DNA of 64,000 nt, taken from assembly GCA_963693365.1 (NCBI GenBank), contig CAVNZM010000001.1, forward strand, positions 21,026,125 to 21,090,124, written 5' to 3'. The stretch is from Amoebidium appalachense. Taxonomy: Eukaryota; Protista; Ichthyosporea. Position numbers and translations under genes: made by a program. The notes beneath the pieces are model-generated. The model saw nothing but the letters and a program-made list of their open reading frames with translations, did not search any database and was not told the origin of the DNA. Of this stretch, positions 1,999 to 60,708 are shown one piece after another; position 1 is the stretch's first letter; every line of letters begins with the position of its first letter.

Positions 1999-9737
<7,739 letters not shown>

Positions 9738-9739
9738 AG

Positions 9740-10223
9740 TATGCGCCTGCGCCGTCTTCCTGCTGCTGCAGGTAGCGCGCTAGAGCCTCGTCCTCGGCAA
9801 CACCCATCTCTCGCTAGCTAGCCGCGTGATACGTTCCCTTGTGGTTACACACTGCAAACACCACAAACACTGCTGAAAAAAGTTGGCAGTGGGGTGATCA
9901 TTTGGAAGCGGGGTGCAGCTTGGCAAAGATGGCCAATCAGAAAGTGGAAACAAAGGAATGCGCGGGAAGGCGAACGATTGGAAGACTGTTTCAAATGCAA
10001 GCGAATGAAGAAAGAGCCTCGAACACTATATATAGGTACAATGTAAATAGCTTGATTGGTATCACCAATACTGCCTTACGTAAGGGAGCTTCCTGTGATT
10101 ACATCACAGCTCGTCAGCGTCTGCCTGTATCCGGAGAGCTCAGTCACACTTGTCTTTAAGGTAATTTACAGTTTCAAAGTTTTGGGGATAGCACACACAC
10201 TCTGTGAGCACGCACACGGCAGC
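9740..10223. promoter_or_regulatory. Putative bidirectional promoter between MYSM1-like and CWC15
   Basis: About 480 bp between divergent start codons, free of microsatellites, with CCAAT boxes in both orientations (~9931, ~9976, ~10054-10068) and a TATATA run at ~10028. Confidence 0.5.
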
Positions 10224-11801: not shown

Positions 11802-12736
11802 AAATATGTACGTGCATAAGGTTACGAGTGTGGGTGTGGGTGGCTGGCATGCAGCCGGATGTGTTGCATGCATGCCCGGTGTGTGTTTCGTGGTAGCGGT
11901 TATGGTTGTGATGGTGTGTGACTCATGCGTGTGGGTAAAGGTGTGTGTATAGGTGTGTGTATTGCACGTTCGTGTTAGATGTCTTCCCCTTCTTTTTTTG
12001 TTCATCTCACCAGGGGGGGGGGGGGGGGAGGGGGGGGAGGGGGGGGGGGGGGGAGGTGAGAAAGAGAGGGGGGGGGAGGGGGGGGGGGTCTGGCTTTTTT
12101 CAGGGGGGCTTTTTCCAATCCTTGTGCTCGGTTTCCTTTGGGCGGCCATGGAAAAAGAGGGGGGGAGGGAGGGGACGGAACACGGGGGAGGTAGCAGCTA
12201 ACGGGATGGTTTTCAGCGGCATTGGATGCAGACGATGCAGACCAGAACGATGATGACGATGACGACAGGTGGGTGCGCACCAGATATGGATATGAGCCAT
12301 ACTTGGATGTATGGATATGTGGATATATATGCACCATACATGGATATGTGGATATGCACCATATGTGGATATGCACCATATGTGGATATGCACCATACAT
12401 GGATATATGGATATGCACCATATGTGGACATGCACCATACATGGATATGCACCATATGCGGACATGCACCATAATGTGAACATGCACCATATGTGGGTAT
12501 GCATGCATGTACACACTAGATGTGGATATGTGGATATGTGTATATTCACCATATGTGGATATGCATGCAGTACACACCAGATGAAGATGTTGTTATGCAT
12601 GCAGTACACACCAGATGAAGATGTTGTTATGCATGCAGTACACACCAGATGTGGATGTTGTGCATGCAGTGGGCACACACATGGGTGGAAATGATCTGTG
12701 TATGGGATTAGTGGATGAGAGGCCGGGGGGGGGGGG

Positions 12737-12805
<69 letters not shown>

Positions 12806-13314
12806 CGAGAGAGGTGTGTGTGTGTGTGTGTGTATGTGTGTGTGTGTGTGTGTGTGTGAGCGTGGATATGTGTGTGTGTGTGTGTGTGTGTTTGGGGGGG
12901 AGGGGAGGGGAGGGGAGGGGGTATTGTGTGTTAGACAAACTCCTACATGCATGCACACGTCATGGCACCCACACTACGTCTTGTGTATGAGCTGACACAT
13001 GCCTATGCTTAAAAACAATGGTGGGTGTGTGTTGGTGGCACACACTGCATTTGGCACTCGCATGCAATTAAGACAGGGCCACGTGTGTTGCCTGGGCACA
13101 TGCACTGACCATCATCCATGTGCTTGTTGCTTAATTTAGAACATACGGCACGAACCAATGAATATTCCAGTATGGTCACGTGCATGCCCTGTTCTGATTG
13201 GTGGGTGCAGTGATGATAGCGATGAGGACGACACGGCCGAGCTTCTAGCCGAGCTGGAACGAATCAAAAAGGAGAGGGCACTGGAGCAGGCCAGAAAGGT
13301 GCGTCTGTGTGTGT

Positions 13315-13346
<32 letters not shown>

Positions 13347-13838
13347 GGGAGGGAAGGTAGGGAGGAAGGCAGATGCCTGGTGTTGGACAGGGGTTGGTTG
13401 TTGTGTGCCGTGTGGCCGCTAATGATTCTGCTACGTGTGGCCGCTAATGATTCTGCTACGTGTGGCCGCTAATGATTCTGCTACGTGTGCATGTGCAGTG
13501 GTGCCTTGCTGTGTGGCAGGACTGTAATGCAAAGGGCACGTGGGCATGGGGGGCAGGCACACTGCATGCACGGGTACGCACACACCCTGCCTGGTGCCCC
13601 GTTCTTATGACCCTGGCTGTGGCTGTGTACACTTGTGTGCTTCGGCCCGTGTGCAGGTTCAAACCCCTACCCCCCCTGACTGCGTGTCTGCAGGAGGCAG
13701 AGGAGGCACAGGCACAGGAGTTGATCCGCACAGAGAATCTGCTGCAGGGCAACCCACTGCTGCACCAGGCAGGAGACTTCACTATCAAGAAGAGGTGTGT
13801 GCTTTTTTTTTTTTTCTTTTGGGGGGGCCTTCCCCCCC

Positions 13839-13869
<31 letters not shown>

Positions 13870-15206
13870 AAAAAAAAAAAATAAAAAATAAAAATAAAAT
13901 AAAATAAAAAATAAAGGAAAGACAAAAAGAGAGAAGAAAAAAAGGGGGAGATTTACGTTCTGGCTTTTCCTCCTGTGGGCTGGGAATGTAACTGGGGTTG
14001 GTGACTCCCCCCCCCCCCCCCAAAACCCCCCCTCCCCCCCCCCCCCCTTTTTTTTTGGGGGGGGGGGGGAGGAGGGGGAGGGGGGGTCCATTGTGTTTGA
14101 ATGTTTCTGTCCACTTTCCTGAGCAAGGAAACAAGAAACATTGTTATGGATGTGTGTGCTGATATGCACTATATATATGTGGGATGATATTCCTTGCTGA
14201 TATGCACTATTTATAGGTGGAATGATATTCCTTGCTGATATGCACTATATATAGGTGGGATGATATTCCTTGCTGATATGCACTATTTATAGGTGGGAAG
14301 ATATTCCTTGCTGATATCCACTATTTATAGGTGGGATGATGTTCCTTGCTGATATGCACTATTTATAGGTGGGATGATGTTCCTTGCTGATATGCAGTAT
14401 TTATAGGTGGGATGATGTTCCTTGCTGATATGCACTATTTATATGTGGGATGATATTCCTTGCTGATATGCACTAGTGATATGTGGGATGATGTTCCTTG
14501 CTGATATGCACTATTTATAGGTGGAATGATATTCCTTGCTGATATGCACTATTTATAGGTGGGGTGATGTTCCTTGCTGATATTCACTATTTATAGGTGG
14601 GATGATATACCTTGCTGATGTGCTATTTATATGTGGGATGATATACCTTGCTGATGTGCTATTTATAGGTGGGATGATGACGTGGTGTTCAAAAACTGTG
14701 CAAGGGGGGTGCCGGACAAGAAGACACCCAGCTACGTTAACGACACAATCCGCAGCGAGTTCCACAGAAAATTCATGAAGAAGTCCGTGAAACAATCACA
14801 CACACATGCACACACAGACATGCATACATGTGCACACAGACATGCATACATGTGCACACAGCATGCATACATGCACACCCAGACATGCATACATGTGCAC
14901 ACAGGCATGCATACATGCACACACAGACATGCATACATGCCCACACAGACATATGCACATGTACACACACACATGCGCACACGTGGACACAAACATATGC
15001 ACAGCGCACACAGACATGCGCACGTGCGCCCACAGACATATGTACACATGCACACAGACACATTCACACATGTACACACAAACATGCACACATGTACACA
15101 CAGATATATGCACACACACACACACACATGCACACATGTACACACAGATACATGCACACACACACACACACACACACACCTATGCACACATGTACACACA
15201 GAGATA

Positions 15207-16831: not shown

Positions 16832-18358
16832 ATGGCGTGGCTGCTGCTGCCGGCCAGCACTGAACGGCTGCGGCTGCGGCGGCTGACCGACAGTGACCTG
16901 CCCCCTTTTGTGGGCTACCGTAGCTGCAGGGAGGTGGCCAGGCTACAGAGCTGGACGGAAGACTTCGGCCTGGAACAGGCACAGGCCCTGCTCAGGTCAC
17001 AGGACAGCAACAGCTGGGGCCAGCCTGACACGTATGTGGCCTTTGGCTTCCTCGTGCTGTGTGTTTGTGTGTGGGGGGGTGGGTGGGTGGGTGGGTGGGG
17101 GGAGGGGGGGGGGGAGGGGGGGGGGGAGGGAACCAGGCACCTTATTCTGCAGGTTCAGATCCCGTCCCCTTCTGGTCGTTTCCTCCCGCGAGGCTCGACC
17201 TTCCATTTATAGTGTTTTCATTCTACTTCCCGTTTATTCCCTCACAAGCACCCGCTCTTCGATTACTATTTGCTGCATTCTTTCCGACCCCGATACAAAT
17301 TTGACAACACCCACAACTCTTCCTGACCTGATATATCGATATTTTCCCCTTTCCGTTCTTTCCTTCCATCCCACGCCCTCCCGCGTTCCTTTTGCTTCAC
17401 TTGACCTCTTTGTCCCCATATTGCCTTCCCCTCCTTCCGCATCCCCCCTTCCCCTCACATGTAGTTGTAGGTGTTGATTCCCCCCCCCCTCCCCCCACCA
17501 ATTCCTGATTGTACTCCCCGAACTCAGCCTCCCCCCCTCCTCCTCCCCCTCCCCCCTCTCTCCCCCTCGATCCGCCCCCTCCTCCTCCCCCCCCCCCCCC
17601 CCCCCCCCCCCCCCTTTCCACTAAATACACCCACACAATCACCTTCCTCTTCTGCGCACCACGACACGCCTGCCGTTAAAGTCTTGGTTTGGATGGTCGA
17701 CCCCCATACTTCTGTGTATTAACCAAACAGAGTGCTAATGTGCGGGTCACTGAAGGTTCCTGGTGGATGACCTCATGCATCCCTCCTTTCATGTTACACT
17801 AGTGCCCACAAGCGCCCGTGCACAGATGCGTGCCCACATGGAGAAAACCGTCACCCACTTGCTAACACACACAAGTACATAGCCACACATGGATACCCCT
17901 ACCTGCACACAAGTGCACATGCTATTAGAGAGACAAAGAGAAACAGACATGGCAGGCAGGCAGCTGGCCAGGCGCACACAGGAGCTCACAGGCCAACCCC
18001 CAGGTGGTACCAGACGGCCATAGCCGACAAGACAACAGACACCCTCCTAGGCGATATAGCCCTCCACTTCCCCCCTGCTGGCTCCCGTGTGCTTGAGGTT
18101 GGGTTCACTGTGGCCCCAGAGCACCAGGGTAAGGGCTATGCCTCTGAGGCCCTGCGGTGTGTGCTGACTGCAGCAGCAGAGGGTGGGGAGGTTGAAAAGG
18201 TGGTGGCATACACGGACGTGAGGAACACAGCAGCTAGAAGGCTGCTGGAGAGGGTTGGGTTTGTGCAGGAGGGTGAGCCCAGTGAGGCTACGTTCAAGGG
18301 GGAGGTGTGTTTGGAGGTGTGCTACGTCTATGTGGTTGGGTCCTGTCCAAGGGGCTAA
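16832..18358 (+). CDS. GNAT N-acetyltransferase, RimJ/RimL (Acetyltransf_3) type, 2 exons (16832-17031, 18004-18358)
   Basis: TERLRLRRLTDSDL N-terminus, WYQTAIA...LLGDIAL, EVGFTVAPEHQGKGYASEAL (acetyl-CoA motif A) and NTAARRLLERVGF; the GT-AG intron joins in frame. Confidence 0.9.
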
Positions 18359-25801: not shown

Positions 25802-38880
<13,079 letters not shown>

Positions 38881-40627
38881 TGCCCTGTCGGGCTGCTTTC
38901 AGTGGAAAACTCAGGCAGGTCCGTGAACTTCTGAAGGCCGGCCAGCGGGATGTTCGCGCCAAAATGTAGGCCGGCAACATTTGATTGGCTAGCTTGAAGT
39001 ACTCCCGAGGTTTTGATATGTTCGTTCAACTTCGGGCGCCAAGTTTGTATAGTCACTCTTGAGTGCTGTCTTCCCTGCGGCCTTTTTTTTTTTCTTTTCT
39101 TTTTTTTTTTTTTTTTTTTCTGTCGCCGCCGTGGCGTAGTAGTGCCCGGCCACTTACGTAAGCCAGTGGGTACATATCCTTGGAGACTAGCTAAGTTACG
39201 CCGTCGCCGCTGCCGCGACGCTGGCAGTGCGACCTGCCTCTACTTGTTTGCCTTGTGCCTGCGTAGCCACCACGGTTGTTATCTGCATGCTGCTGACATA
39301 CGGTGCCGTCCAACCAATTGCCTGTGGCCGGCAGCTGACATACGGTGCCGTTCAACCAATTGCCTGTGGCCGGCAGCAAACCAGATGCACAGCCACAACT
39401 GGTCAGTACGTCAGCACGTACAAGCCCTCGGTTTATGCTATGTTTCAGCTGGAACCAACGACGGACACTCTAGTTTACAAAGTCTTGGTTGTCGTGCTTA
39501 CTAAGGCTTGTTGGCCCAGAGGGGGTGGGTAGGGGTGCGGGGGGAGGGGGGGGCGAGGGGCTGGGGAAACAGAAGGGCCGGAGGGGAGGGAGGGGAAGAA
39601 GGGCAGTCTAATAAAAGGCGCCATTCGTTGGATGCTGGGTCAAGCTTAAGCCAGTGTGTGTCAGTCAGTCACCTCACCGTAAGTGCGTGTGAGATGGTTG
39701 TCTGTTTACGTGTGTCATCCTGAAGTAATAGAGTAATAGGATTGTTCTTGGACGTGTGTGCGTGTAGTGTGTGTATGCGTGCGCGTGCGAGCGTGTGTGC
39801 GTGCGTGCGTGCATGTGTGCGTGCGTGCTTGGGTAGGGGTGGGTTGTTTGTGCCAAGGTGTGCGTGTGTGTATCATTGTGTGTATACGTACTGTGACGTA
39901 TGCAGGCAGATGTTTGTGTGTGGATGTGCTAACTTTTGTATTTGTGCGTGTGGTTTTATTACTAGCTATGTTTTTTCGGCCGTGCCTTGCGTTGGGGCGT
40001 CCGGGAATGCCTTAATCAGTGACATGCATGTGACCTGGTAACGATTATGTAGGGTTAGGTTAAATAACGGCGTTTTGACTGATAAACGTGACTAATATAT
40101 TTAGAGACTGCTTCGTGGCGTTGTCCCTGTTTCTAAACTTGAGTTTCTAAAAAATGCTATATTGTGGGGTGTCACGTGTGCCGCACGGTGTGTGTAGCTA
40201 CTATCCTTAGCTTGCTAGAACCGTGACGGGGCGTAGTCATATTGGGTAGCTCCCATCTTGCCTCCAGGCCCTCGGAGGATGCCTGGCAGGTCTCTGAGAC
40301 CTTGTGGCGCCTGCACGGTCAACGGTGGGAGGCCGCTTCGAAGCTTCTGGGAGCTCAGTTCGTGGGGCGGTGACTACATGCGCAGTGCGTACGTACGGTG
40401 GGCCAACGGTGCGCGCCTGGCCACACGTGACACGAGTCACGACCCCAGCTGGTAACAGGGATGCGAGGGACAAGCGAGGCCCTGGAATGGAGGCTTGAAT
40501 GTCCCTAATAATAAGGTCTACCCTGCTACCACACCAGTTACCGGTTCCTTAGCAGGGGCGAAAGCACAGAAGAGCACACCCCTTGAGAAACGGGCGCAGG
40601 CACAGCTAGCATGAATTCGCTTACTCA

Positions 40628-40796: not shown

Positions 40797-41333
40797 GGGG
40801 GTTTACACACTTTTTATTGCGTGGACATTACCGGAGGCCCAGCCACATTCGACGGCCTACTGCGTTTTCCAGCACAGCCAATCAAATGCAGCCAGTGACA
40901 TATGTACATGCTAGGCAACAATGAGCGCCATCGTAGTATCTGACACCCCTATTACATATTATGGGTAAGCAGATGCTAGCATCGGTAGCTCCGAAAGAAA
41001 GTTAAGGCACCGGATCACAATATCATACTGTGCAGCATTAATAAGGTGATCTAGGATAGTCATCTTAAAACGGATATATTGAGGAAGAGAGGAAGAAAAG
41101 AGAATAAAACCGCCAATAACCTCCGGTTCTAATACATTAGCTAACAGGTTGCATTTATTGATAGATATGCAGCCGCGAGTAAACCGCCCCCCACACATAT
41201 TACACATACGAGCAGGAGACACCAGAAACCGATTACACCGCCAAGCCATAATCATCTTTGCGTTTTTACACCACACCACATTACGAATAAACGAATCTAT
41301 GTATGAACGAGACTCTCTAACCGTATCCGCCAT
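40797..41333 (-). mobile_element. 5'-truncated copy (537 bp) of LINE-A, inverted relative to the full-length copy
   Basis: Reverse complement of 47197-47733 with two mismatches noticed; flanked by direct repeat ATCAAGAT (40789-96, 41332-39), overlapping the 5' junction by 2 nt. Confidence 0.93.
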
Positions 41334-42137: not shown

Positions 42138-43286
42138 ATGGCGTCTCAGGATGCATCCTTGTCCCCGGACCCTCCTGGGACACCGCCTGGGAGCCGCAAA
42201 CGTGATACACGGGAAGGAGAATCCCCAGATAAGAGGCTAACTAAACTGAGCCGAGCGGAACAGGTTCCCTTTCCCGAGGTTAAAGCGCCACCGGCCGTGC
42301 CGCCAGCAAGTAGTTTTATTACGAAAGAACAACTGCACTTGATACCCGAGAAGGCTAGGAAATCCGTGCTCAAACTTATGGCGCATCATGAGCAGCTCCG
42401 CACCCAAGTCTCCGACTTAACAACCCAAGTAGCTGAGTATAAAGCCAAACAGGACCACACAGACCTCCTTGTTCAGCAAATGGAGACGCGCTTACGGCAG
42501 CTGGAAGCTGACCGGGCAACCCCCACCGGCCCTGCCCACGCGGGCCCGGCCCCTGCAGCACAGGCAACCCCCGATGGGTTACCCACCCCCCCGGGGTCTC
42601 CCAAGTTCATACCCACAACGAATCCTAAGGTGTACCGCACTACGGTGGACGCCAAGACCGTGTACGTGTCCGAGAAAGTCAAAACGTATGCCGAGTCGGT
42701 GGCCCAGACCCACGGGGCTACCCAGGCTTTGGCAGCCCTTGCCGCAGCGTCAGCACTGCGGGTCCCAACCCGCCGCCCTCGGGTGGCGTCTGACCCTGCC
42801 CCTCAGGGTACCGACGAGTCCGAGTTGACCACTGCAGCCTTCACCATGGTGCCGGCCAACATCAGCACCATGCGTGACCGTCTTTACACCCTCGGTGTCC
42901 TCAACCGAATGATTCCTGACATGCTCTTCATTGGCCGTCGCTACACAGTGTTCCTTGTGCGTGCCGGCTACCGTGATACCCTCATAAACATCATCCAACG
43001 TGCTACCGACGCCACCTTTCTCGCAGACTTCGATCCTACGGCTCCCTACAACACCACACTTAACCGTGTTGATGCAGAGGCCGCTGCCCGGGCCTCTTGG
43101 CAACGCCGGGTGCTTGCAAGAATGGCCAACGCCCACGCATGGGCTGTCAAGGCAGCCACACTTTACCCGGCACACGACAGCCGGGCCAAAACAGCAGCTG
43201 AGGTGCGTGCCTACTGGGAGGCTCAGCACGTGCTGGTCTTCAGCAAGCCCTACGACCCCACCGCCGCACCAGCCAACTCCCAGTAA
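42138..43286 (+). CDS. LINE-A ORF1 protein (382 aa, coiled-coil, putative RNA chaperone)
   Basis: Intact ORF ending 2 nt before the ORF2 ATG; heptad-like stretch HEQLRTQVSDLTTQVAEYK...VQQMETRLRQLE. Confidence 0.85.
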   Translation: MASQDASLSPDPPGTPPGSRKRDTREGESPDKRLTKLSRAEQVPFPEVKAPPAVPPASSFITKEQLHLIPEKARKSVLKLMAHHEQLRTQVSDLTTQVAEYKAKQDHTDLLVQQMETRLRQLEADRATPTGPAHAGPAPAAQATPDGLPTPPGSPKFIPTTNPKVYRTTVDAKTVYVSEKVKTYAESVAQTHGATQALAALAAASALRVPTRRPRVASDPAPQGTDESELTTAAFTMVPANISTMRDRLYTLGVLNRMIPDMLFIGRRYTVFLVRAGYRDTLINIIQRATDATFLADFDPTAPYNTTLNRVDAEAAARASWQRRVLARMANAHAWAVKAATLYPAHDSRAKTAAEVRAYWEAQHVLVFSKPYDPTAAPANSQ

Positions 43287-44659
43287 GCATGCTCTCCTTT
43301 CTTTTCTGGAATGCTCGTAGTCTAAATAAGAGTAAAGCACAGTTTCTTCTTTCGTTACCCCAACAGGAGTTCCCGTTTATTGTTGTCGCAGAAACGTGGT
43401 GGCGAGACCACGCCACACTCCGTCGGTCTGGACGGCTCGTGGGCGAGTCTACTCAGCCTGTGGGCCACAAGCCTCACTCCGGCATAGTGTTCATCGCCGC
43501 CTACCACTTTGTTAACCACTGTTCAGTTATAGCACGTACAATACACACACTCACCATCTCAGTTTGTGGCCATAATTTATATGCACTTTTGTTTATTTTC
43601 CACCTAGCCTTCCACTTCTAGCACTTAAACACGAACTTAACACCATCGCCCCACATAACCCCACACTAGTGTTAGGAGACTTTAATAGCCCGCTAACTAC
43701 CACCCCACACCCCCTACACGGCCACCCACAGGCCCTACTTAAACCCAACCACCCACGCACGCCAACCTTTCACACTTTTGTTACAGCCTTACGCCTTACT
43801 CTTCCATCTGTAGTACAAGAACACCGCACGGACTGGGGGGCAGCCTCTGCAGTGGTCCTTGCACCTTACACATACACCACAACCTACACCCCCCACCGTC
43901 AGACCACCTACCTATAGTCTTTCGCACTACACTTAGCCTTTCTACGCCGTCACCACAACACACTTACAGACTTAACGTACGCGAACTTAGTAAAAGCCAG
44001 CGCGGCCAACCAGACACTCGCTTCTTTTTCGAGACGGTGCAACCGAGTCTATTATCGCTTGTGCGTGATGGACGCCAAACCCCACTACGCACCGACCAGA
44101 CCTTCATCGATAGCGTCCGGTCTACAGTACGAGAAACCTTGTGGGACATAGGTGAATATGCCTGTTTAGGTGCCCAAGTTTACCCACAAGCACGAACTAC
44201 ACACACTCGCGGCCCTCGAGCGAAGGCTGCCTTACGTAAGCCTCTACCGTATCACATGCTATTGGGTAATATTCGGAAGGTTGATCGCGGCGATCATTCG
44301 ATTCGAATAACGGCCGACCCGTCATCCGACCCGGAATCTGCAACCGATTCCTTTTACGGCACCCTGTTTAAACGTAACCCGACATGTATGGCCACGGACC
44401 TGGGGCAGGCGCCCCCTCCTGTTTTTGTTCCACCCTCCGACACACCACCACCACCACACACGGCGTGGCCAGCGGGGCCGGCTGAGTTTGGGGCGGAATT
44501 GGGGGAACTTTTTACCCCAGATGCGGTATGGCAGTTAGTCTCCCGTTACCCGTCCCGCAAAGCGTGCGGGCCGGACGGCATCCCTATGGCACTACTTAAG
44601 GTACTCATCCCACCCCGACCCGAGAAAGACGAAAAGCGTGGCCCGCCGCCACCACTTAC

Positions 44660-44947
44660 TGTTGGAAGATGGTATCGTTATCCAGTCCGATCGCATGAAT
44701 CAGATCATGATCGGCTGGTGGCCTGCGAGATCTTAACCGATCTCGTAGCTCAGTTGGTAGAGCACTCAACCGGAGATAGAGGGGTCGCGGGTTCAAATCC
44801 CGTCGGGATCATTTTTTCTCATCCTCTTCTCGCTGGGGTAAAAGCCAGCACGCCTTTACTGGCGTCATCACAACCATCGGCAGTGGTTAGGTTGTGATCT
44901 CAAGGCTAGCAAGATCGCTAGTCTCTGCACCAGGACAAAATCCAAAA
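44660..44947. mobile_element. 288-bp solo LTR-like insertion carrying a tRNA-like gene
   Basis: Termini TGTTGGA...TCCAAAA (one mismatch from TCCAACA); 5-bp TSD CTTAC (44655-59, 44948-52); excision restores the ORF2 frame. Confidence 0.85.
44739..44811 (+). tRNA. tRNA-like (pseudo-tRNA) Pol III unit, nominal anticodon GGA, body resembling tRNA-Phe
   Basis: Cloverleaf: acceptor GATCTCG/CGGGATC+A, D arm GCTC-AGTTGGTA-GAGC (A box), anticodon arm CTCAA-CCGGAGA-TAGAG (one mismatch, C33), 5-nt variable loop, T arm GCGGG-TTCAAAT-CCCGT (B box), then T6 at 44812-17. Confidence 0.85.
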
Positions 44948-45559
44948 CTTACATGTATTCTTAGCGAGTTGTTTAGCTGGTATTCTGATGTCGGTAAAGT
45001 GCCCTCGGAGTGGCTAGCCACCTTAGTGTTTGTCATCAAGAAAACGGTTGCACAGGGTCCCATCCACGAATTTCGCCCTATCACCCTTACGTCCGTTTTT
45101 CGCCGATTATTCGAAAGTGGCCTTTTACAGGCCTTTTCCCGTAACCCCACCCTTAAGCAGGCTTCCCAGCTGAGCCCTCTTCAGGCGGCGTTTCGGCATC
45201 GACACTCATGTTACGCACAAATCCTCACTCTACATAATGCAACTCAAAGTGATACCGAGCACCTCGTATTTATCGATTTTAAGAACGCGTACGACACGGT
45301 CGACCTCCCTCGCCTGTGGGCCAAGTTGGCCACTCGCGGTGTCCCATTCCAAATGGGTCGGCTACTGGAAGCTATGTTTACGTTTACACGCGGACGAGCG
45401 GTGGTTAATGGGCGGCTATCCCCAGGGTTTACCCGCACGCGCGGGGTACTTCAAGGGTCCCTGCTAAGTCCTCTTCTTTTCAACCTGTATATTGATGATT
45501 TAGCCGACACTCTTTCTGCGGCACAAATTGACGGGGGGTTGCCATCCCAGGCTCCCCCC

Positions 45560-46324
45560 TGTTGGAGTACACTGGTACTCCCGGCTAGCAATGTCTGTTA
45601 GAGAAAGTTTCTGAGCAATTGAATAACTGTTTCAACACTCACTCGAGTGCATAGAGCTTTTGTTTACGGTCATATTCATATATGGTAGTTATATGTTTGA
45701 GCCAAAACTGTACCAATGACGAGCTTCACTAGCAACGTGCTAATTGTGCTCATTAATTAATATTCCCGGTTCAGATGATGTCATGTCTATATTTGCCACA
45801 GGATTCTATTCTTAGAGTGGTAGTGTGCTTTATTCCCGGATATTCTCAGAATATTTTTAGTTGTGTGAAGCAAGATTTACGTTTAACTGCAATTGGTGTG
45901 TTAAACACGTTTATTTGTGTGCTTTAGTGCAAGTTAACTAGCCACTCAACGTGCACAGTTAACTTTTATATCTTTAACGACTTGTTTTCATTGTGCTCTC
46001 TTTTCGGCCATGCTGTACATGGCCCACCACCAGGGTGCACACGAGGCCACCATGAGGTGGCCAACGACTATATAAAGCAGTGCCTCCCATGTCACAAACA
46101 TGGGAAGCAGAACGTTTGATTTACACTTTTCTACTGTCGTTTCCAGTGCACAAAACACATAGACTAGTTACCCATCATACACGACACTATGTCTGACAAC
46201 TTACAGTTGCAGCAACTAGTCCAACTACTGGAGCAGAGGTTGGCCTCACAAGATGCAATCATTTCTGACTTACAGAAGGAACAACGTGCACTAGAACTAG
46301 CTTCTATGAACACAATGTCCAACA
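45560..46324 (+). mobile_element. 765-bp solo LTR inserted just upstream of the RT FADD motif
   Basis: Perfect TGTTGGA...TCCAACA termini; 5-bp TSD CCCCC (45555-59, 46325-29); AT-rich body, TATATAAA at 46069-76, ATG at 46189. Confidence 0.9.
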
Positions 46325-47571
46325 CCCCCGCCCTCTTTTTTGCCGACGATATTGTGCTTATGTCATCCGATCCTCTCGAACTACGGCAATACATTCGTGT
46401 GGTTGAACATTGGTGCCAGCGCAACGATATGCAGATTAATGTCAAAAAGTGTGCCCTTTTATCAAAATCGATACCGGCATGGGACGACGTTTGTATTTTC
46501 GGCAGTCCCCTCCCTCGCCCAATCGAATACAAGTATTTGGGGATTCCGGTGGACGAATGGGGCATATGTTTCAAACGGATGATCGACCGTCGGGTGGAGA
46601 GTGCAGGCAGGTGTCTTCGGTTATTTCGGGATGTGTATCTTGCTACTCTTTCTCATACTGTCCACCTATACAATCGTCTTAGTATATTTCGCACATATAT
46701 TCGCCCTTTGTCGGAATACGGGTTGCCCTTACTAGCTATGGCACCCCCTGATACTGTTACTAATGTCCTCAAATCATTAGATGATTTCCATTACACAACT
46801 TGTTGTAAGTTTCTCACTGGTCTTTCCACACCTATCCCTAGACGCCTTTTTGATTCTCTCTACGCACTCACACCACCATCACAACGCGTACACGAATTAG
46901 CCCTTAAATTTCACGAGCACATCACCCGCCTGTCCGCTTGTGCCCCGGACCACCCGCTCTTCCGGCTACACGCATCCCCGCCGGATTCGCCCCTCTACCT
47001 CTTCCCTTCCCCATCGTCTCTGCCCATCATTGTTGAGCGCTATGTGGAATGGCTGGCGACCACCCCGGAGGTACGGCTAGATCATAGTGTGAATATGAAT
47101 AGTTTCAAGTCTATGGCTGATAGATATCTTTTTACTCTACGTGTTGAGTCCCTTCCGGTGTTAGGACCGCAAAAACACCAATTACTAGTAGCCTATATGG
47201 CGGATACGGTTAGAGAGTCTCGTTCATACATAGATTCGTTTATTCGTAATGTGGTGTGGTGTAAAAACGCAAAGATGATTATGGCTTGGCGGTGTAATCG
47301 GTTTCTGGTGTCTCCTGCTCGTATGTGTAATATGTGTGGGGGGCGGTTTACTCGCGGCTGCATATCTATCAATAAATGCAACCTGTTAGCTAATGTATTA
47401 GAACCGGAGGTTATTGGCGGTTTTATTCTCTTTTCTTCCTCTCTTCCTCAATATATCCGTTTTAAGATGACTATCCTAGATCACCTTATTAATGCTGCAC
47501 AGTATGATATTGTGATCCGGTGCCTTAACTTTCTGTCGGAGCTACCGATGCTAGCATCTGCTTACCCATAA
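46189..47571 (+). CDS. Chimeric ORF (460 aa): ~45 LTR-encoded coiled-coil residues fused to the LINE RT C-terminal half
   Basis: MSDNLQLQQLVQLLEQRLASQDAIISDLQKEQRALEL lies inside the LTR and reads in frame into ALFFADD...YKYLG...; expression unknown. Confidence 0.5.
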   Translation: MSDNLQLQQLVQLLEQRLASQDAIISDLQKEQRALELASMNTMSNTPALFFADDIVLMSSDPLELRQYIRVVEHWCQRNDMQINVKKCALLSKSIPAWDDVCIFGSPLPRPIEYKYLGIPVDEWGICFKRMIDRRVESAGRCLRLFRDVYLATLSHTVHLYNRLSIFRTYIRPLSEYGLPLLAMAPPDTVTNVLKSLDDFHYTTCCKFLTGLSTPIPRRLFDSLYALTPPSQRVHELALKFHEHITRLSACAPDHPLFRLHASPPDSPLYLFPSPSSLPIIVERYVEWLATTPEVRLDHSVNMNSFKSMADRYLFTLRVESLPVLGPQKHQLLVAYMADTVRESRSYIDSFIRNVVWCKNAKMIMAWRCNRFLVSPARMCNMCGGRFTRGCISINKCNLLANVLEPEVIGGFILFSSSLPQYIRFKMTILDHLINAAQYDIVIRCLNFLSELPMLASAYP

Positions 47572-49248
47572 TATGTAATAGGGGTGTCAGATACTACGAT
47601 GGCGCTCATTGTTGCCTAGCATGTACATATGTCACTGGCTGCATTTGATTGGCTGTGCTGGAAAACGCAGTAGGCCGTCGAATGTGGCTGGGCCTCCGGC
47701 AATGTCCACGCAATAAAAAGTGTGTAAACCCCCGCGAATTCATGCTGGAACAGCTCAGGCTGTGAAATTAGGGGGTTTATGTAGGGCCAGATCGATTTAG
47801 AAACATTTTTTCTTTTGACTCGGTTTTAGTGATCCGTTGATGACGGCAACGTGCAGCCACAGGCTACATAACCACCAATAGAACTGAAAAAGCCAAAGCT
47901 ACGAAAGAAAAATAAAGTGACAAGTGACAAAGGACACCAGCGGGCAAAACCTTAAGTGTACGTGTATGCGTGAAACTAGTTTGCTCCAATTAGTCATATG
48001 CATCGATGTTGACCAGACCACACTCCGCAAAGACATCATTAATTACTGCTGCTTCCCAACAGGCCCCCCTCAAAACCTACAAAATTGCCCCCGAAAGCCC
48101 GAAAATTGTCCCTAACTTTTCGAGGTTAGGTCCATCGACTTTTGAGAAATTGGCCCTAACAAGGCCAAATATATAAGAAATTACACCCAAAAACGGTTGT
48201 TGTCTCGATTAGGGCCATCCAGGCTGGTAGAAAGGTAACAAAATGGCAGTAGCCAAAAACAAATTTCACACCCTGGCACAGCTGCAGCTGGCAAAATAAT
48301 TTCACACCCCGACCCAAAGTTGTTACGCGATAGAGATTGGGTCTGCCGACACCCGATTTGGCGATGATAAGAATGGACCGCGTTGATTGGTCGGCTGGCT
48401 GTGACGTCACATACCTTTCCTGTGACGCAAATGCGGGCCGAGATCTAGAAGGATTGACTTAAACAAGCCAGTGTGTGTGTCTGTGCGTGGGTAGTTGTGT
48501 AGGTTATAATACGTACGGGTAACTTAAGAGAGGGCAGGCAGCATATTCTGTTTATTTTGTGGTGCATGTGCTTGTTGTGCAATCAAGTCACAGGTTAAAG
48601 CAGCACTGAACACACGTAGGGCTCCGCCGGGTCAGCAAGAGGACACTTAGCAGGACACATACAGAGATAGACAGGTGACTCTGTGGGTGGGCATACGGGG
48701 CACCTCAGTGGGTTGGGGAGAACGAAACCTTTCGGTAAACCTGGTTGGGTGCTCCTTACTGCTGGCCGACCAGGAGCTAGCATTAAGGTGAATGGCTGGG
48801 GCGTGGCTGTGTGTTGGTGCACCAGTGCTACTTGTGCCAGTCATAGCAGTAAAGAGGGGTCGTGCAGGGATAACAGGTGTAGATGGGCGTGTGTTCCAGT
48901 GCGCTTTGCCCGTCAACATCTCTTCAATCATTCCGTGTCACGCCTCTGGGTCTCTTGGTCAGAATGATTTACGTTAGCTCAGCATTATGCTGTGAACCAC
49001 TTCTCTGTGTGGTGTTGTGAATGCAACACCGTAGCATCTTGGTATATGGAGTACATCAGGATGCTGCGTGTCGTTTGTGTGGCCGCTGGCGGTTCAATGG
49101 CCCAGTCCTGCCTTCTAGCAGCGAGTACGAGGAGCGGCTGGGTGCCCCCTTCTCTGTTCCTGTCGGGTGTAATAACTGGCTTTTGCCTTCCCCTGTGCTC
49201 GGTGCCACTGTGCTCACGCGACCCTTTGGTGTGCCTGCAGGGTGTTGC

Positions 49249-57717: not shown

Positions 57718-58428
57718 CGGAGTGTACGTGTGAATGCGCTTGTGTCCGTATGTCCAGACGAAGTCTTGCTTTTTTTGGTGCACTCCGGAACACGTGCTAT
57801 AGCTTAGTGTACGGAACAGCGTGGTGCACGTGGTTTTCCCTATAAATGCTACGTATACAGCTTGGCCGTGGTATTCTCACATGCAAGTTCTGTAGCGTGA
57901 TCGGCTAGCAGTAGGCTTGCTCATGGGCTAAATCAGCCAGGGAAAAACAAACAAAACAAACCATGTGTTTGCTTGCGTGTTATTCAGAAATTTGCGGCCA
58001 CTTTTGGTAGGTAACCACTAGCGAAGGTATTTTTTTTGCGCCAGGGTGTAGGCGTTTTCTGGCTGCGACAGATATGAAAACGCTCGTATTGTTTTTGCGC
58101 CAGGGTGTAGGCGTTTTCTGGCTGCGACAGATATATATGAAAACGCTCATGTATGAACGGAGCGCTTGGCTAGATGATATTCGATCTGGGCCGCCGCCCT
58201 GAGGTCAATTGGCTCAGAGGCACCCATCCACCCCGCACATGTTGGCTGGCCGGGCATGGTGATTGGCCCATGGTTTTGATGGGTAGGCTTACGTAAATAT
58301 CGTCCCGGTTGTGAAACGGGCCTTGCTGGTACCAGTGGTGGTGGCGGTGGTGAGCATGTGTGCGCGTGTGGGCATGCATCCCCGTGGATGGGTGTGGGTG
58401 TGGGTGGGTGTGTGGGTGAGCCCGGACC

Positions 58429-58481
<53 letters not shown>

Positions 58482-58520
58482 CAGACTGTGTGCCAACAGC
58501 TGCATGCATCGACATATCCG
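57718..58520. mobile_element. Possible ~800-bp non-autonomous insertion interrupting LINE-B
   Basis: Flanked by direct repeat GATGATC (57711-17, 58521-27) with CGGA...TCCG ends; internal ~55-bp duplication at ~58032-58147. Confidence 0.4.
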
Positions 58521-60708
58521 GATGATCATATTCAAACAACGTCATTTTATCCAATTTATATATTCGAGAATGTCTCTCTTCCCGGCCGATGCACCACCCC
58601 CCGCTCAGAAACCTATTGTGTGGCCTGTAGACCCATCTATCCCCATAGAATCGATCCTCCCCTTTTTCAGTCCCGATGCCATATGGTCTGTGATATCTAG
58701 TTATAGCTCTAGTAAGTCTTGTGGACCTGATGGACTCCCTGCTGGGTTTCTTAAAATCCTTATTCCCTCCTACCCACAAAAGGAAAGTGATCGTGCTATT
58801 AAACCTGATCTTACTATCATGTTAAGCTCTCTCTTTTCCTGGTGTGTTAAATGTGGACATGTCCCGTCATCTTGGTTAGATACCTTAGTGATCCCCATAG
58901 TTAAGAAGGACTCTGAGGGCCCCATATCATCCTTTCGCCCCATTACACTAACCCAGGTTGTTCGTAGATTCTTTGAAGCTTGCTTACTTAGGTTATTTGC
59001 ACATCACCCTAGGTTTCAATCTATTCTTCACATACACCCATGCCAATCCGCTTTTCGTAAAAACAATTCATGTTATGTTCAAATAATGGCACTGCACGAT
59101 TCTATGCAAGTTGGTGCACAATATGTTGGCTTTATTGATTGGAAAACTGCTTACGATTCTGTCTCCCCTGGTCTCCTATGGGAAAAGCTTGCTGCACGGG
59201 GTGTACCACACTGCATTGGTGTTCTGTTAGAAGCACTCTTGTCTCAAACCTATGGTAGAGCTGTGGTTAATGGGCATCTTTCATATGGTTTTGCTCGTAC
59301 TAGAGGTCTCTTGCAGGGTTCATTGCTTAGCCCCTTTTTGTTTAACCTATTTATAGATGATCTGGCTGTCAAGATTTACGCCGAAAACGATGACCCTATT
59401 AATAACTTTCCGCCTGCACTTCTCTATGCTGATGATCTGTCCCTCCTTGCCCGTACCCCTAGACGCCTGCAAAGATTGTTCGATGTAGTGTCAGAGTGGT
59501 GCAAGGCAAACCTGATGATCCTTAACATAGACAAATGTGGTGTTCTTGTACCTGATATAGCTAACAATTTACACACATTTACATTATCATCTAAACCTGT
59601 ACCTATAGTTCCAGAATACAAATATCTTGGTGTTCCGGTTGATTCTGTTGGTGTTATGTTTCCCCATATGGTCGAAAAGAGGGTAGAGTCGGCTCGTAAG
59701 CGGTTAGCTTTCTTCTCGGCTAATATTTTTAAAGACACACCCCTCCATCCTTCTATTAGACTTACATTTATTCGCACTTTTGTCTTCCCGGCATGTGAAT
59801 ATGGTTTACCCCTTTTCGCCGCCTGGATCAAGAAAGAGAGAACTAGAGCGCTTAAACCCTTGACAAATTTCCTTGAAGCAGAAGTTGCCTCCTTTCTATC
59901 TAACAACTGTTGTAAACCTGGGCCTGTAACGCTCTCGATATATGGTCTGGTCCCAATAGCTGCTAGAGTATCCTATCTCGCGCTGAAATTCAATAAGCAC
60001 ATAAGCCGCTTAAAGAAGTATTTGCCCTCCCACCCTCTCTTCTCTATCCGACCTGTCCCCTCCTCACCTCTCCCCTCTTTCCTCCCCTCTCTCTCCCCTT
60101 CTCCCCTGGGCACAAATACAAATAAACCCCGCAATAGTGTGTGTGTGACTTTGGACTGCCACTTACTTATTAAACATGTACACAATCACAAGATAATCAC
60201 GCAATATAACAAATGGAAAAAGATACCACACGACACTAGACCCGATGAAAGCATACACCTTGAAAAACTAAGCCTTATGTCTCGTTTTATATATACTGAC
60301 CGCCTCAACCATATTGCCAAATATGGCACTCGCAAGTGTATAACACCTAAATACATATTACCTTCCTGTAGAACTGGTCTTTTTCTAGCTGATGGTATTA
60401 TTGATCAATTACCACGCTTTTACTGTACACGTGCTATACAGTGGAGATCTAATAAGTATAAGATGGCATCATTTGCATGCCCAAACAACACACACACACA
60501 CCAGTTTAACCGGTCATGTATCGCCAAATGTAGTTTGATAGACCACATAATACCGCAACACACACACGTCACATTCACAACAGACACCCAGAAAGACAGC
60601 CTACCTGTAAATTACAACATCCTTGATTTTATACTAAACACGCGTAACTACGACCTGTTTATTAGATGTATTGATTGGCTTGAGAAACACATCACTACAA
60701 AATTATAG
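58504..60708 (+). CDS. LINE-B ORF2 remnant with an uninterrupted reverse-transcriptase domain (734 aa, no APE in this ORF)
   Basis: KSCGPDGLP, FRPITL, FIDWKTAYD, QGSLLSP, YADD, YKYLG and C-terminal CPN...FNRSCIAKC; collinear with LINE-A ORF2 but diverged. Confidence 0.92.
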   Translation: MHRHIRMIIFKQRHFIQFIYSRMSLFPADAPPPAQKPIVWPVDPSIPIESILPFFSPDAIWSVISSYSSSKSCGPDGLPAGFLKILIPSYPQKESDRAIKPDLTIMLSSLFSWCVKCGHVPSSWLDTLVIPIVKKDSEGPISSFRPITLTQVVRRFFEACLLRLFAHHPRFQSILHIHPCQSAFRKNNSCYVQIMALHDSMQVGAQYVGFIDWKTAYDSVSPGLLWEKLAARGVPHCIGVLLEALLSQTYGRAVVNGHLSYGFARTRGLLQGSLLSPFLFNLFIDDLAVKIYAENDDPINNFPPALLYADDLSLLARTPRRLQRLFDVVSEWCKANLMILNIDKCGVLVPDIANNLHTFTLSSKPVPIVPEYKYLGVPVDSVGVMFPHMVEKRVESARKRLAFFSANIFKDTPLHPSIRLTFIRTFVFPACEYGLPLFAAWIKKERTRALKPLTNFLEAEVASFLSNNCCKPGPVTLSIYGLVPIAARVSYLALKFNKHISRLKKYLPSHPLFSIRPVPSSPLPSFLPSLSPSPLGTNTNKPRNSVCVTLDCHLLIKHVHNHKIITQYNKWKKIPHDTRPDESIHLEKLSLMSRFIYTDRLNHIAKYGTRKCITPKYILPSCRTGLFLADGIIDQLPRFYCTRAIQWRSNKYKMASFACPNNTHTHQFNRSCIAKCSLIDHIIPQHTHVTFTTDTQKDSLPVNYNILDFILNTRNYDLFIRCIDWLEKHITTKL

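What the first reader, a model, noticed from the sequence alone, without database searches (positions are those of the whole stretch)
44660..44947. Solo LTR carrying its own tRNA-like Pol III gene
Seen: a 288-bp insert with LTR termini and a 5-bp TSD whose centre is a full cloverleaf with intact A/B boxes and a T6 terminator. Acceptor, D and T stems are preserved but the anticodon arm is not (A-A mismatch, C33, loop CCGGAGA versus Phe CTGAAGA; GGA without the Ser long arm). It is not a SINE: the tRNA is internal and there is no tail. Known: Cassandra TRIMs carry 5S-derived Pol III units in their LTRs, and I recall rare tRNA-bearing TRIMs in fungi. Inference: a small-RNA-gene-bearing LTR family that makes a tRNA mimic, possibly as promoter, TFIIIC insulator against silencing, or self-supplied RT primer.
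Basis: partly seen in the sequence, partly recalled or inferred. Interest (0 to 1): 0.82.

Follow-up and report, generated by a model that had tools for sequence, protein, structure and literature searches.

The report
tRNA-carrying mini-retrotransposon in animal relative
This is one end-repeat of a tiny jumping element (two end-repeats around 81 bases) that carries a damaged transfer-RNA gene, likely used as its promoter; the type is known from fungi, animals and one plant, and here sits in what is likely a single-celled relative of animals.

Summary
The insert is real: 288 bp, CTTAC duplication, and a 293-bp empty site in 7 of 8 sequencing runs laid. It is the solo LTR of a two-LTR miniature retrotransposon (TRIM). 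Public contigs show LTR end, 81 bp, LTR start; a TGG-starting primer site follows the LTR and a purine tract precedes it (about 660 bp in all). The tRNA-like unit scores 59 bits in Rfam and has A and B boxes and a broken anticodon arm. This is the architecture that defines Helenus (TRIMp3; Kojima 2024), in its fungal, Copia-type form. The host is likely Amoebidium (Ichthyosporea), absent from the Helenus lists, and my searches found no protist report. Pol III transcription is inferred, not shown. Verdict: new member of a known kind in a new lineage; modest interest.

The parts
44655..44659 (+). 5-bp target-site duplication, left (CTTAC)
   Evidence: empty site skips 293 bases
44660..44947 (+). 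Solo LTR of a Helenus-type TRIM (TGTTGGA...TCCAAAA); family copy one base longer
   Evidence: other flanks at both ends, primer site after, purine tract before, LTR-81 bp-LTR joint
44660..44738 (+). U3-like part upstream of the tRNA-like unit (boundary inferred)
   Evidence: position relative to purine tract; folding not above shuffles on + (z -1.08)
44723..44748 (+). Predicted 10-bp leader hairpin that would hide the 5' acceptor strand
   Evidence: not stronger than shuffled flanks (34 of 300 as strong)
44739..44811 (+). tRNA-like unit with broken anticodon arm; likely R region and Pol III promoter
44746..44757 (+). A box
44790..44800 (+). B box
44812..44817 (+). T run: T6 in this copy, interrupted by a C in the family (T2-C-T4 or T1-C-T5)
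44818..44947 (+). Long U5-like part with four stacked predicted hairpins (44832-49, 44850-65, 44867-98, 44903-24)
   Evidence: z -4.45 on +, 0 of 200 shuffles; -2.59 on -
44948..44952 (+). 5-bp target-site duplication, right (CTTAC)
42138..47733 (+). Host LINE (ORF1, endonuclease-like start of ORF2, reverse transcriptase) interrupted by this LTR and by a second LTR
45560..46324 (+). Second, unrelated 765-bp solo LTR (TGTTGGA...TCCAACA, CCCCC duplication), no tRNA; context only

Best explanation
[quoted passage not shown] Shown: the anatomy, the insertion with a 5-bp duplication, several insertion sites, and that the primer site does not match the element's own tRNA. Inferred steps: TFIIIC binds the A and B boxes of the 5' LTR; Pol III starts just before the tRNA-like unit, sometimes reads through the C-interrupted T run, and stops at the same run in the 3' LTR, giving an RNA of about 450 nt whose repeated ends are the tRNA-like unit; a host tRNA (likely the 3' end of initiator Met) primes reverse transcription by an autonomous Copia; integration makes the 5-bp duplication; LTR-LTR recombination left this solo copy inside an LINE. 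Selection would keep the promoter-bearing arms and let the anticodon arm decay, so the RNA is likely not a decoding tRNA. This copy, with an unbroken T6, would at most make a short tRNA-like RNA.
For: Joint 44947 to 44660 with 81 letters between in X7 and X14; the same interior length follows from contigs of X15 and X5 (111 extra letters = 81 + 30 overlap, my arithmetic). Primer site TGGTAGCA directly after the LTR (X16; X7); purine tract GAGTGGGGA directly before it (X16; X1). Unrelated flanks before the start (X15, X16) and after the end (X5). tRNA anatomy. Kojima 2024: Helenus are TRIMs with a tRNA-like unit in the LTR, conserved A/B boxes, discordant anticodon arms, many solo LTRs, no self-complementary primer site; fungal ones have 5-bp duplications and Copia-type primer sites. 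In its Data S1 the same 8-mer opens the interior of 7 fungal families (7 of 11 hits), and the motif attcttttc follows the tRNA unit in 12 of 12 hits; some consensus LTRs also end without CA. Lengths (289/81/659) lie within Table S1 ranges.
Against: No transcript was shown: no holder is on record as RNA and all runs are contigs. Pol III activity is unvalidated for Helenus as a whole. One T run must both be passed and be used as a stop; that is assumed, not measured. The helper was not found: the neighbouring Copia-like LTR has another primer site. The host initiator tRNA was not available (no genome), so the primer identity rests on recalled knowledge and analogy. The joint could also come from tandem arrays or one-LTR circles. 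The 130-nt structured U5 is longer than in the fungal LTRs I read and is unexplained.
Confidence: 0.78

Rival explanations
1. An ordinary Pol II-driven TRIM whose LTR captured a tRNA or SINE head; the unit is a passenger or acts only as a TFIIIC-bound barrier against the host's CpG silencing.
For: Amoebidium methylates transposons, most heavily recent ones (PMC11244446 section 6), so a barrier would be useful; no RNA evidence for Pol III here; a T run directly after the unit would cut many Pol III transcripts short.
Against: No TATA-like or poly(A)-like element is evident upstream or downstream (by eye); promoter arms are intact while the anticodon arm is broken; the unit plus short T run recurs in many independent Helenus lineages. 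A barrier role is not exclusive of the promoter role.
Confidence: 0.13
2. The LTR spreads a functional small RNA: a charged tRNA or a tRNA mimic that acts on the host (decoy for synthetases, processing enzymes or silencing).
For: Full-length cloverleaf with 59 bits, perfect acceptor stem, predicted to fold when nearly free of flanks (acceptor probability 0.89 alone, 0.65 with a 4-nt leader); contigs show few differences across eight runs.
Against: C at 33, a mismatch in the anticodon stem in both the window and the family state, GGA anticodon without a long variable arm; Kojima finds most Helenus units unlikely to be functional; near-identity is explained by recent spread.
Confidence: 0.06
3. 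The tRNA-like RNA primes the element's own reverse transcription.
For: Only the presence of an intact acceptor stem.
Against: Observed primer site TGGTAGCA versus required TGGTGATCCCG: 4 bases shared; the complement of the primer site has no exact match in the LTR (best 6 of 8); same negative result for all Helenus.
Confidence: 0.01
4. A MITE or Ginger-like non-autonomous DNA transposon, or a SINE, with a tRNA inside.
For: Short size, 7-bp imperfect inverted termini, many hairpins.
Against: Primer site, purine tract and LTR-81 bp-LTR joint; fixed ends without a tail.
Confidence: 0.02

Closest known systems
Helenus (TRIMp3), fungal Copia-type families such as Helenus-5_PSt, Helenus-3_PTrit, Helenus-1_CCin, Helenus-1_AmAr (Kojima 2024, PMC10886601)
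   Same: Two short LTRs with a full tRNA-like unit, A/B boxes, short T run behind it, interior under 100 bp with primer site starting TGGTAGCA and a G-rich purine tract, 5-bp duplication, TGTT start, solo LTRs, no self-priming.
   Different: Host likely an ichthyosporean, not listed (Table 1, S1); LTR 288-289 bp, just above the longest fungal one (284); tRNA unit is followed by about 130 nt of stacked hairpins rather than lying near the 3' end; AA terminus; 4 of 6 motifs from this LTR had no hit in Data S1 and the other two hits were generic, so no shared descent is shown.
Animal Helenus (LTR-11_DR, ULTR-1_NVi, bivalve families)
   Same: tRNA-like unit in LTR, primer site for a tRNA 3' end; host is also a holozoan.
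   Different: Animal families make 4-bp duplications and have Gypsy-type primer sites for Lys, His, Leu, Arg and others; this one makes 5 bp and has the fungal-type site.
Cassandra TRIMs (plants; PMC7215508 passages)
   Same: Pol III small-RNA gene inside each LTR; transcript from LTR to LTR is the model for the mechanism; tandem arrays possible.
   Different: 5S-derived (box A/C) rather than tRNA-derived; transcription is validated there, not here.
tRNA-derived SINEs (SINE2)
   Same: tRNA-derived internal promoter with decayed anticodon arm.
   Different: No 5' head position, no tail, fixed LTR ends, primer site and purine tract.

Membership tests
Helenus / TRIMp3 | Two LTRs around a short non-coding interior, total about 311-1263 bp | tested here: met
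   Joint LTR end to LTR start with 81 letters between in 2 of 4 runs; about 659 bp. Whether copies are single two-LTR elements or arrays is not resolved.
Helenus / TRIMp3 | tRNA-derived sequence inside the LTR with conserved box A (TRGCY..YGG) and box B (GGTTC) | tested here: met
Helenus / TRIMp3 | Primer-binding site just after the 5' LTR | tested here: met
   TGGTAGCA after 44947 in X16 and X7; same 8-mer opens 7 fungal Helenus interiors
Helenus / TRIMp3 | Polypurine tract just before the 3' LTR | tested here: met
   GAGTGGGGA before 44660 in X16 and X1
Helenus / TRIMp3 | 4-bp (animal) or 5-bp (fungal, plant) target-site duplication | tested here: met
   5 bp at this one site, with empty site; other sites not paired
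Helenus / TRIMp3 | tRNA-like unit not complementary to the primer site | tested here: met
Helenus / TRIMp3 | tRNA-like unit predicted non-functional (isotype disagreement) | tested here: inconclusive
   Anticodon arm defects shown; tRNAscan-SE isotype models not available
Helenus / TRIMp3 | Transcription by Pol III from the LTR (proposed, validated only for Cassandra) | not testable with these tools
   only contigs available
Helenus / TRIMp3 | Autonomous partner sharing the primer site | tested here: inconclusive
   The only other LTR in the window has a different primer site; no genome to search
Fungal Helenus clade (common descent) | Sequence similarity to described families beyond the tRNA unit | tested here: inconclusive
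   Only exact short motifs could be searched in Data S1; no alignment was possible
Canonical LTR termini | TG...CA ends | tested here: not met
   TG...AA in window and contigs; not required for Helenus, where some consensus LTRs end in TA
Cassandra / Ajax | 5S rRNA-derived unit in the LTR | tested here: not met
   Rfam finds only tRNA
Retrozymes | Hammerhead ribozyme in the LTR | tested here: not met
   No ribozyme family in Rfam scan to E 10; no hammerhead core motif on either strand (motif recalled)
SINE2 | tRNA head at the 5' end and a simple-repeat tail | tested here: not met
   tRNA at LTR positions 80-152, no tail

The most novel reading that the evidence does not exclude
First Pol III mini-retrotransposon from a unicellular relative of animals, in which flanking hairpins form a folding switch: a leader hairpin hides the acceptor stem of the 3' tRNA copy and the long U5 refolds the 5' copy, so the element's RNA escapes RNase P and Z while short terminated transcripts are released as a tRNA mimic; its fungal-type features would then point to an old opisthokont lineage or a transfer from fungi.
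Probability: 0.1. Interest if true: 0.7.

Novelty: new member of a known kind. Interest (0 to 1): 0.36.

Why it matters
It extends tRNA-bearing TRIMs (Helenus) from fungi, animals and Selaginella to a likely ichthyosporean protist, and there the element has the fungal, Copia-type signature although the host is closer to animals; this bears on whether Helenus arose many times or is old. Amoebidium grows axenically and has a mapped methylome, so the untested claim that Helenus LTRs are Pol III promoters, and the idea that they resist CpG silencing, become directly testable. Practically, such LTRs inflate tRNA gene counts: ARAGORN calls this one tRNA-Ser.

Tried and rejected
Expression: no RNA holder listed; X7 and X14 are only guessed to be RNA and are contigs, so their depths were not used as evidence, nor were depths used as copy numbers. 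Anti-cloverleaf switch: the acceptor stem is predicted lost with either real flank, but shuffled flanks do nearly as well (upstream 34 of 300 as strong, downstream 119 of 300), so it is not supported. Parent tRNA: the 20 best of 1736 phage records give Ile, Asp and Phe at 75-82%, plasmids only generic tRNA hits; isotype left open. Ribozyme: none. GATC enrichment as a Dam target: 8 sites against 2.2 expected (0 of 1000 shuffles), but 50 of 600 shuffles have some 4-mer as enriched, and the DAM-retrotransposon preprint has no GATC passage; kept only as a note. Other copies in the window: none. Exact-motif scans of metagenome contigs and viral contigs: 0 matches. Host gene GNAT gave one bacterial hit only. 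Neighbouring 765-bp LTR as helper: different primer site. No own genome and no earlier findings were available. Repbase and Dfam could not be searched, so the family may already sit unnamed in a repeat library.

Full report
Observation. The window holds, at 44660-44947, a 288-bp insert flanked by CTTAC on both sides. It interrupts the reverse-transcriptase ORF of a LINE (ORF1 42138-43286; RVT_1 hits in two downstream frames; similarity to LINE ORF2 proteins on both sides of the insert), and removing it with one duplication restores the frame. ARAGORN and Rfam each find one tRNA in the 64 kb, at 44739-44811 (59.2 bits, E 2.9e-10). Acceptor, D and T stems pair fully; the anticodon stem has an A-A pair, position 33 is C, and the GGA anticodon comes with a 5-nt variable loop. 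The termini are TGTTGGA and TCCAAAA, so the 3' CA is absent. There is no second copy in the window and no genome is held.

The family. Twenty of 24 listed runs hold the region; I laid eight of them, all as contigs. A joint that skips exactly 293 bases (288 + 5) stands in 7 of 8 runs, and the eighth shows the empty site as loose ends. No listed piece bridges this window's LINE-LTR junction, so the filled site is seen only here. Unrelated flanks lie before the start (X15, X16) and after the end (X5), which means other insertion sites. After the last base come the letters TGGTAGCA (X16, X7), a primer-binding site with no spacer; before the first base comes GAGTGGGGA (X16, X1), a purine tract. In X7 and X14 a contig goes from the LTR end back to the LTR start with 81 letters between; contigs of X15 and X5 carry 111 extra letters, which is 81 plus the 30-letter graph overlap (my arithmetic). 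The full element is therefore about 289 + 81 + 289 = 659 bp, a TRIM; contigs cannot tell single two-LTR copies from tandem arrays or circles. Two features of the window copy are private: all 8 runs show G at 44768 (the anticodon stem stays mismatched), and the 7 runs with a row there show a C inside the T run. The tool writes this as T2-C-T4 for plus-strand records and T1-C-T5 for minus-strand ones; I could not settle which, and favour T4.

Host. A second LINE in the window (58579-60705) is 98% identical over 381 residues to a protein filed as Amoebidium parasiticum in EukProt, and a CWC15 exon has its best hit in an entry labelled Ihof (87%; I read this label as Ichthyophonus hoferi from recall), with Sphaeroforma arctica fourth of 39. 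The host is thus likely Amoebidium, an ichthyosporean; the species is not fixed.

How it likely works. Shown: anatomy, insertion, multiple sites. Inferred: the A and B boxes recruit TFIIIC and Pol III in the 5' LTR; some transcripts pass the interrupted T run, copy U5, primer site, interior, purine tract and U3, and stop at the T run of the 3' LTR, giving about 450 nt with the tRNA-like unit as the terminal repeat; a host tRNA primes, a Copia-type helper reverse-transcribes and integrates; recombination leaves solo LTRs. That the primer is the 3' end of initiator tRNA-Met is recalled knowledge plus analogy: Kojima names this primer class for some fungal Helenus, but the figure assigning families is not held. 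Self-priming fails: it needs TGGTGATCCCG. The 128 nt after the T run fold into four stacked hairpins (z -4.45, 0 of 200 shuffles; minus strand -2.59), against z 0.02, 0.87 and -1.94 in three LINE windows and up to -3.26 in six windows of the neighbouring LTR; a packaging or priming signal is a guess. A leader hairpin and the trailer are predicted to break the cloverleaf inside the long RNA, which would protect it from RNase P and Z, but shuffled flanks do about as well, so this stays speculation.

Comparison with what is known. Kojima 2024 (PMC10886601; whole main text read; supplement parts 1, 9, 10, 11 of 11 and two searches; figures not held) defines Helenus as TRIMs with a tRNA-derived sequence in the LTR, in rust and agaric fungi, six animal phyla and Selaginella, 311-1263 bp, probably born several times; fungal ones have 5-bp duplications and Copia-type primer sites, animal ones 4 bp and Gypsy-type sites; none self-primes; Pol III activity is validated only for Cassandra. 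Every structural defining feature that I could test is met. The element resembles the fungal type: the same 8-mer opens 7 fungal interiors (7 of 11 hits) and attcttttc follows the tRNA unit in 12 of 12 hits. Common descent is not shown: 4 of 6 exact motifs had no hit and the other two were generic. Amoebidium, Sphaeroforma, Ichthyospor- and Capsaspora have 0 hits in the supplement. The Amoebidium genome paper (PMC11244446; 12 of 23 passages and section 6 read; supplements not read and they may hold a repeat library) has 0 hits for tRNA and Copia and 1 for LTR. Passages of PMC13570524, PMC12859917 and PMC7215508, and part 1 of 5 plus passages of bioRxiv 2026.05.21.726589, add no protist example. 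Searches (listings only for papers not named above) found no report of a tRNA-bearing TRIM in a protist; Repbase and Dfam were not searchable.

Against my reading. No transcript is shown; the helper was not found (the 765-bp LTR at 45560-46324 has a different primer site); the parent tRNA is unresolved; exact-motif scans of metagenome and viral contigs were empty; the AA terminus departs from the LTR rule, although some Helenus consensus LTRs end in TA.

Verdict. Real, and explained: a new member of Helenus/TRIMp3 in a lineage where it was not listed, with a fungal-type signature and an unusually long structured U5. Interest 0.36, down from 0.82, because the kind was described in 2024 and the most exciting proposal (self-priming) is refuted; what remains is a convenient system for testing the Pol III and barrier models.

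Noticed in passing
window 45560-46324 (+): Second solo LTR in the same LINE, 765 bp, CCCCC duplication, empty site (skip 770) in 4 of 4 runs. Other copies show a primer site starting GGGTTATGGGCCC, like the anticodon-loop type of Copia and most fungal Helenus, and a tract GAGTAGGGG. An ORF starts inside the LTR at 46189 (45 codons, coiled-coil-like) and by my reading stays open into the primer site, as a gag start would.
   Followed up: partly
window 44660 and 45560: Two LTR families with the same first seven bases inserted 612 bp apart, same strand, in one LINE copy: possible shared integrase preference or a tolerant silenced locus.
   Followed up: no
window 40797-41333 (-): 537-bp 5'-truncated copy of the host LINE's 3' end, 99.6% identical, inverted, with an apparent ATCAAGAT duplication; makes a long inverted repeat around the LINE.
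   Followed up: partly
window 40608-40620 and 47734-47746: The 13 bases after the host LINE's 3' end recur in reverse complement 176 bp upstream of the truncated copy; unexplained.
   Followed up: no
window 44689-44916: Eight GATC sites in the 288-bp LTR, the highest of 443 windows and none in the neighbouring LTR; nominally significant, borderline after allowing for all 4-mers.
   Followed up: partly
window 17771-18355 (+): Intron-poor GNAT acetyltransferase whose only hit is bacterial (Shewanella, 51%): candidate horizontal transfer.
   Followed up: partly
window 26857-27336 and 29923-30402: 480-bp perfect direct repeat about 3 kb apart: possibly the LTRs of another element.
   Followed up: no
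window 58420-60705 (+): Second LINE family with a long open RT frame, 98% identical to a transcriptome protein of Amoebidium parasiticum.
   Followed up: partly
PMC10886601 Data S1, Helenus-2_SyJa-LTR and Helenus-2_SyUm-LTR: By eye these wasp LTRs carry a hammerhead-ribozyme-like core downstream of the tRNA unit, which the paper's text does not mention; motif recalled, not tested.
   Followed up: no
window about 5000-9800 (-) and 12000-14800 (+): Exons of a Myb plus MPN (MYSM1-like) gene and of CWC15 amid long poly-C/G and CA microsatellite introns; MYSM1 label is from recall.
   Followed up: partly
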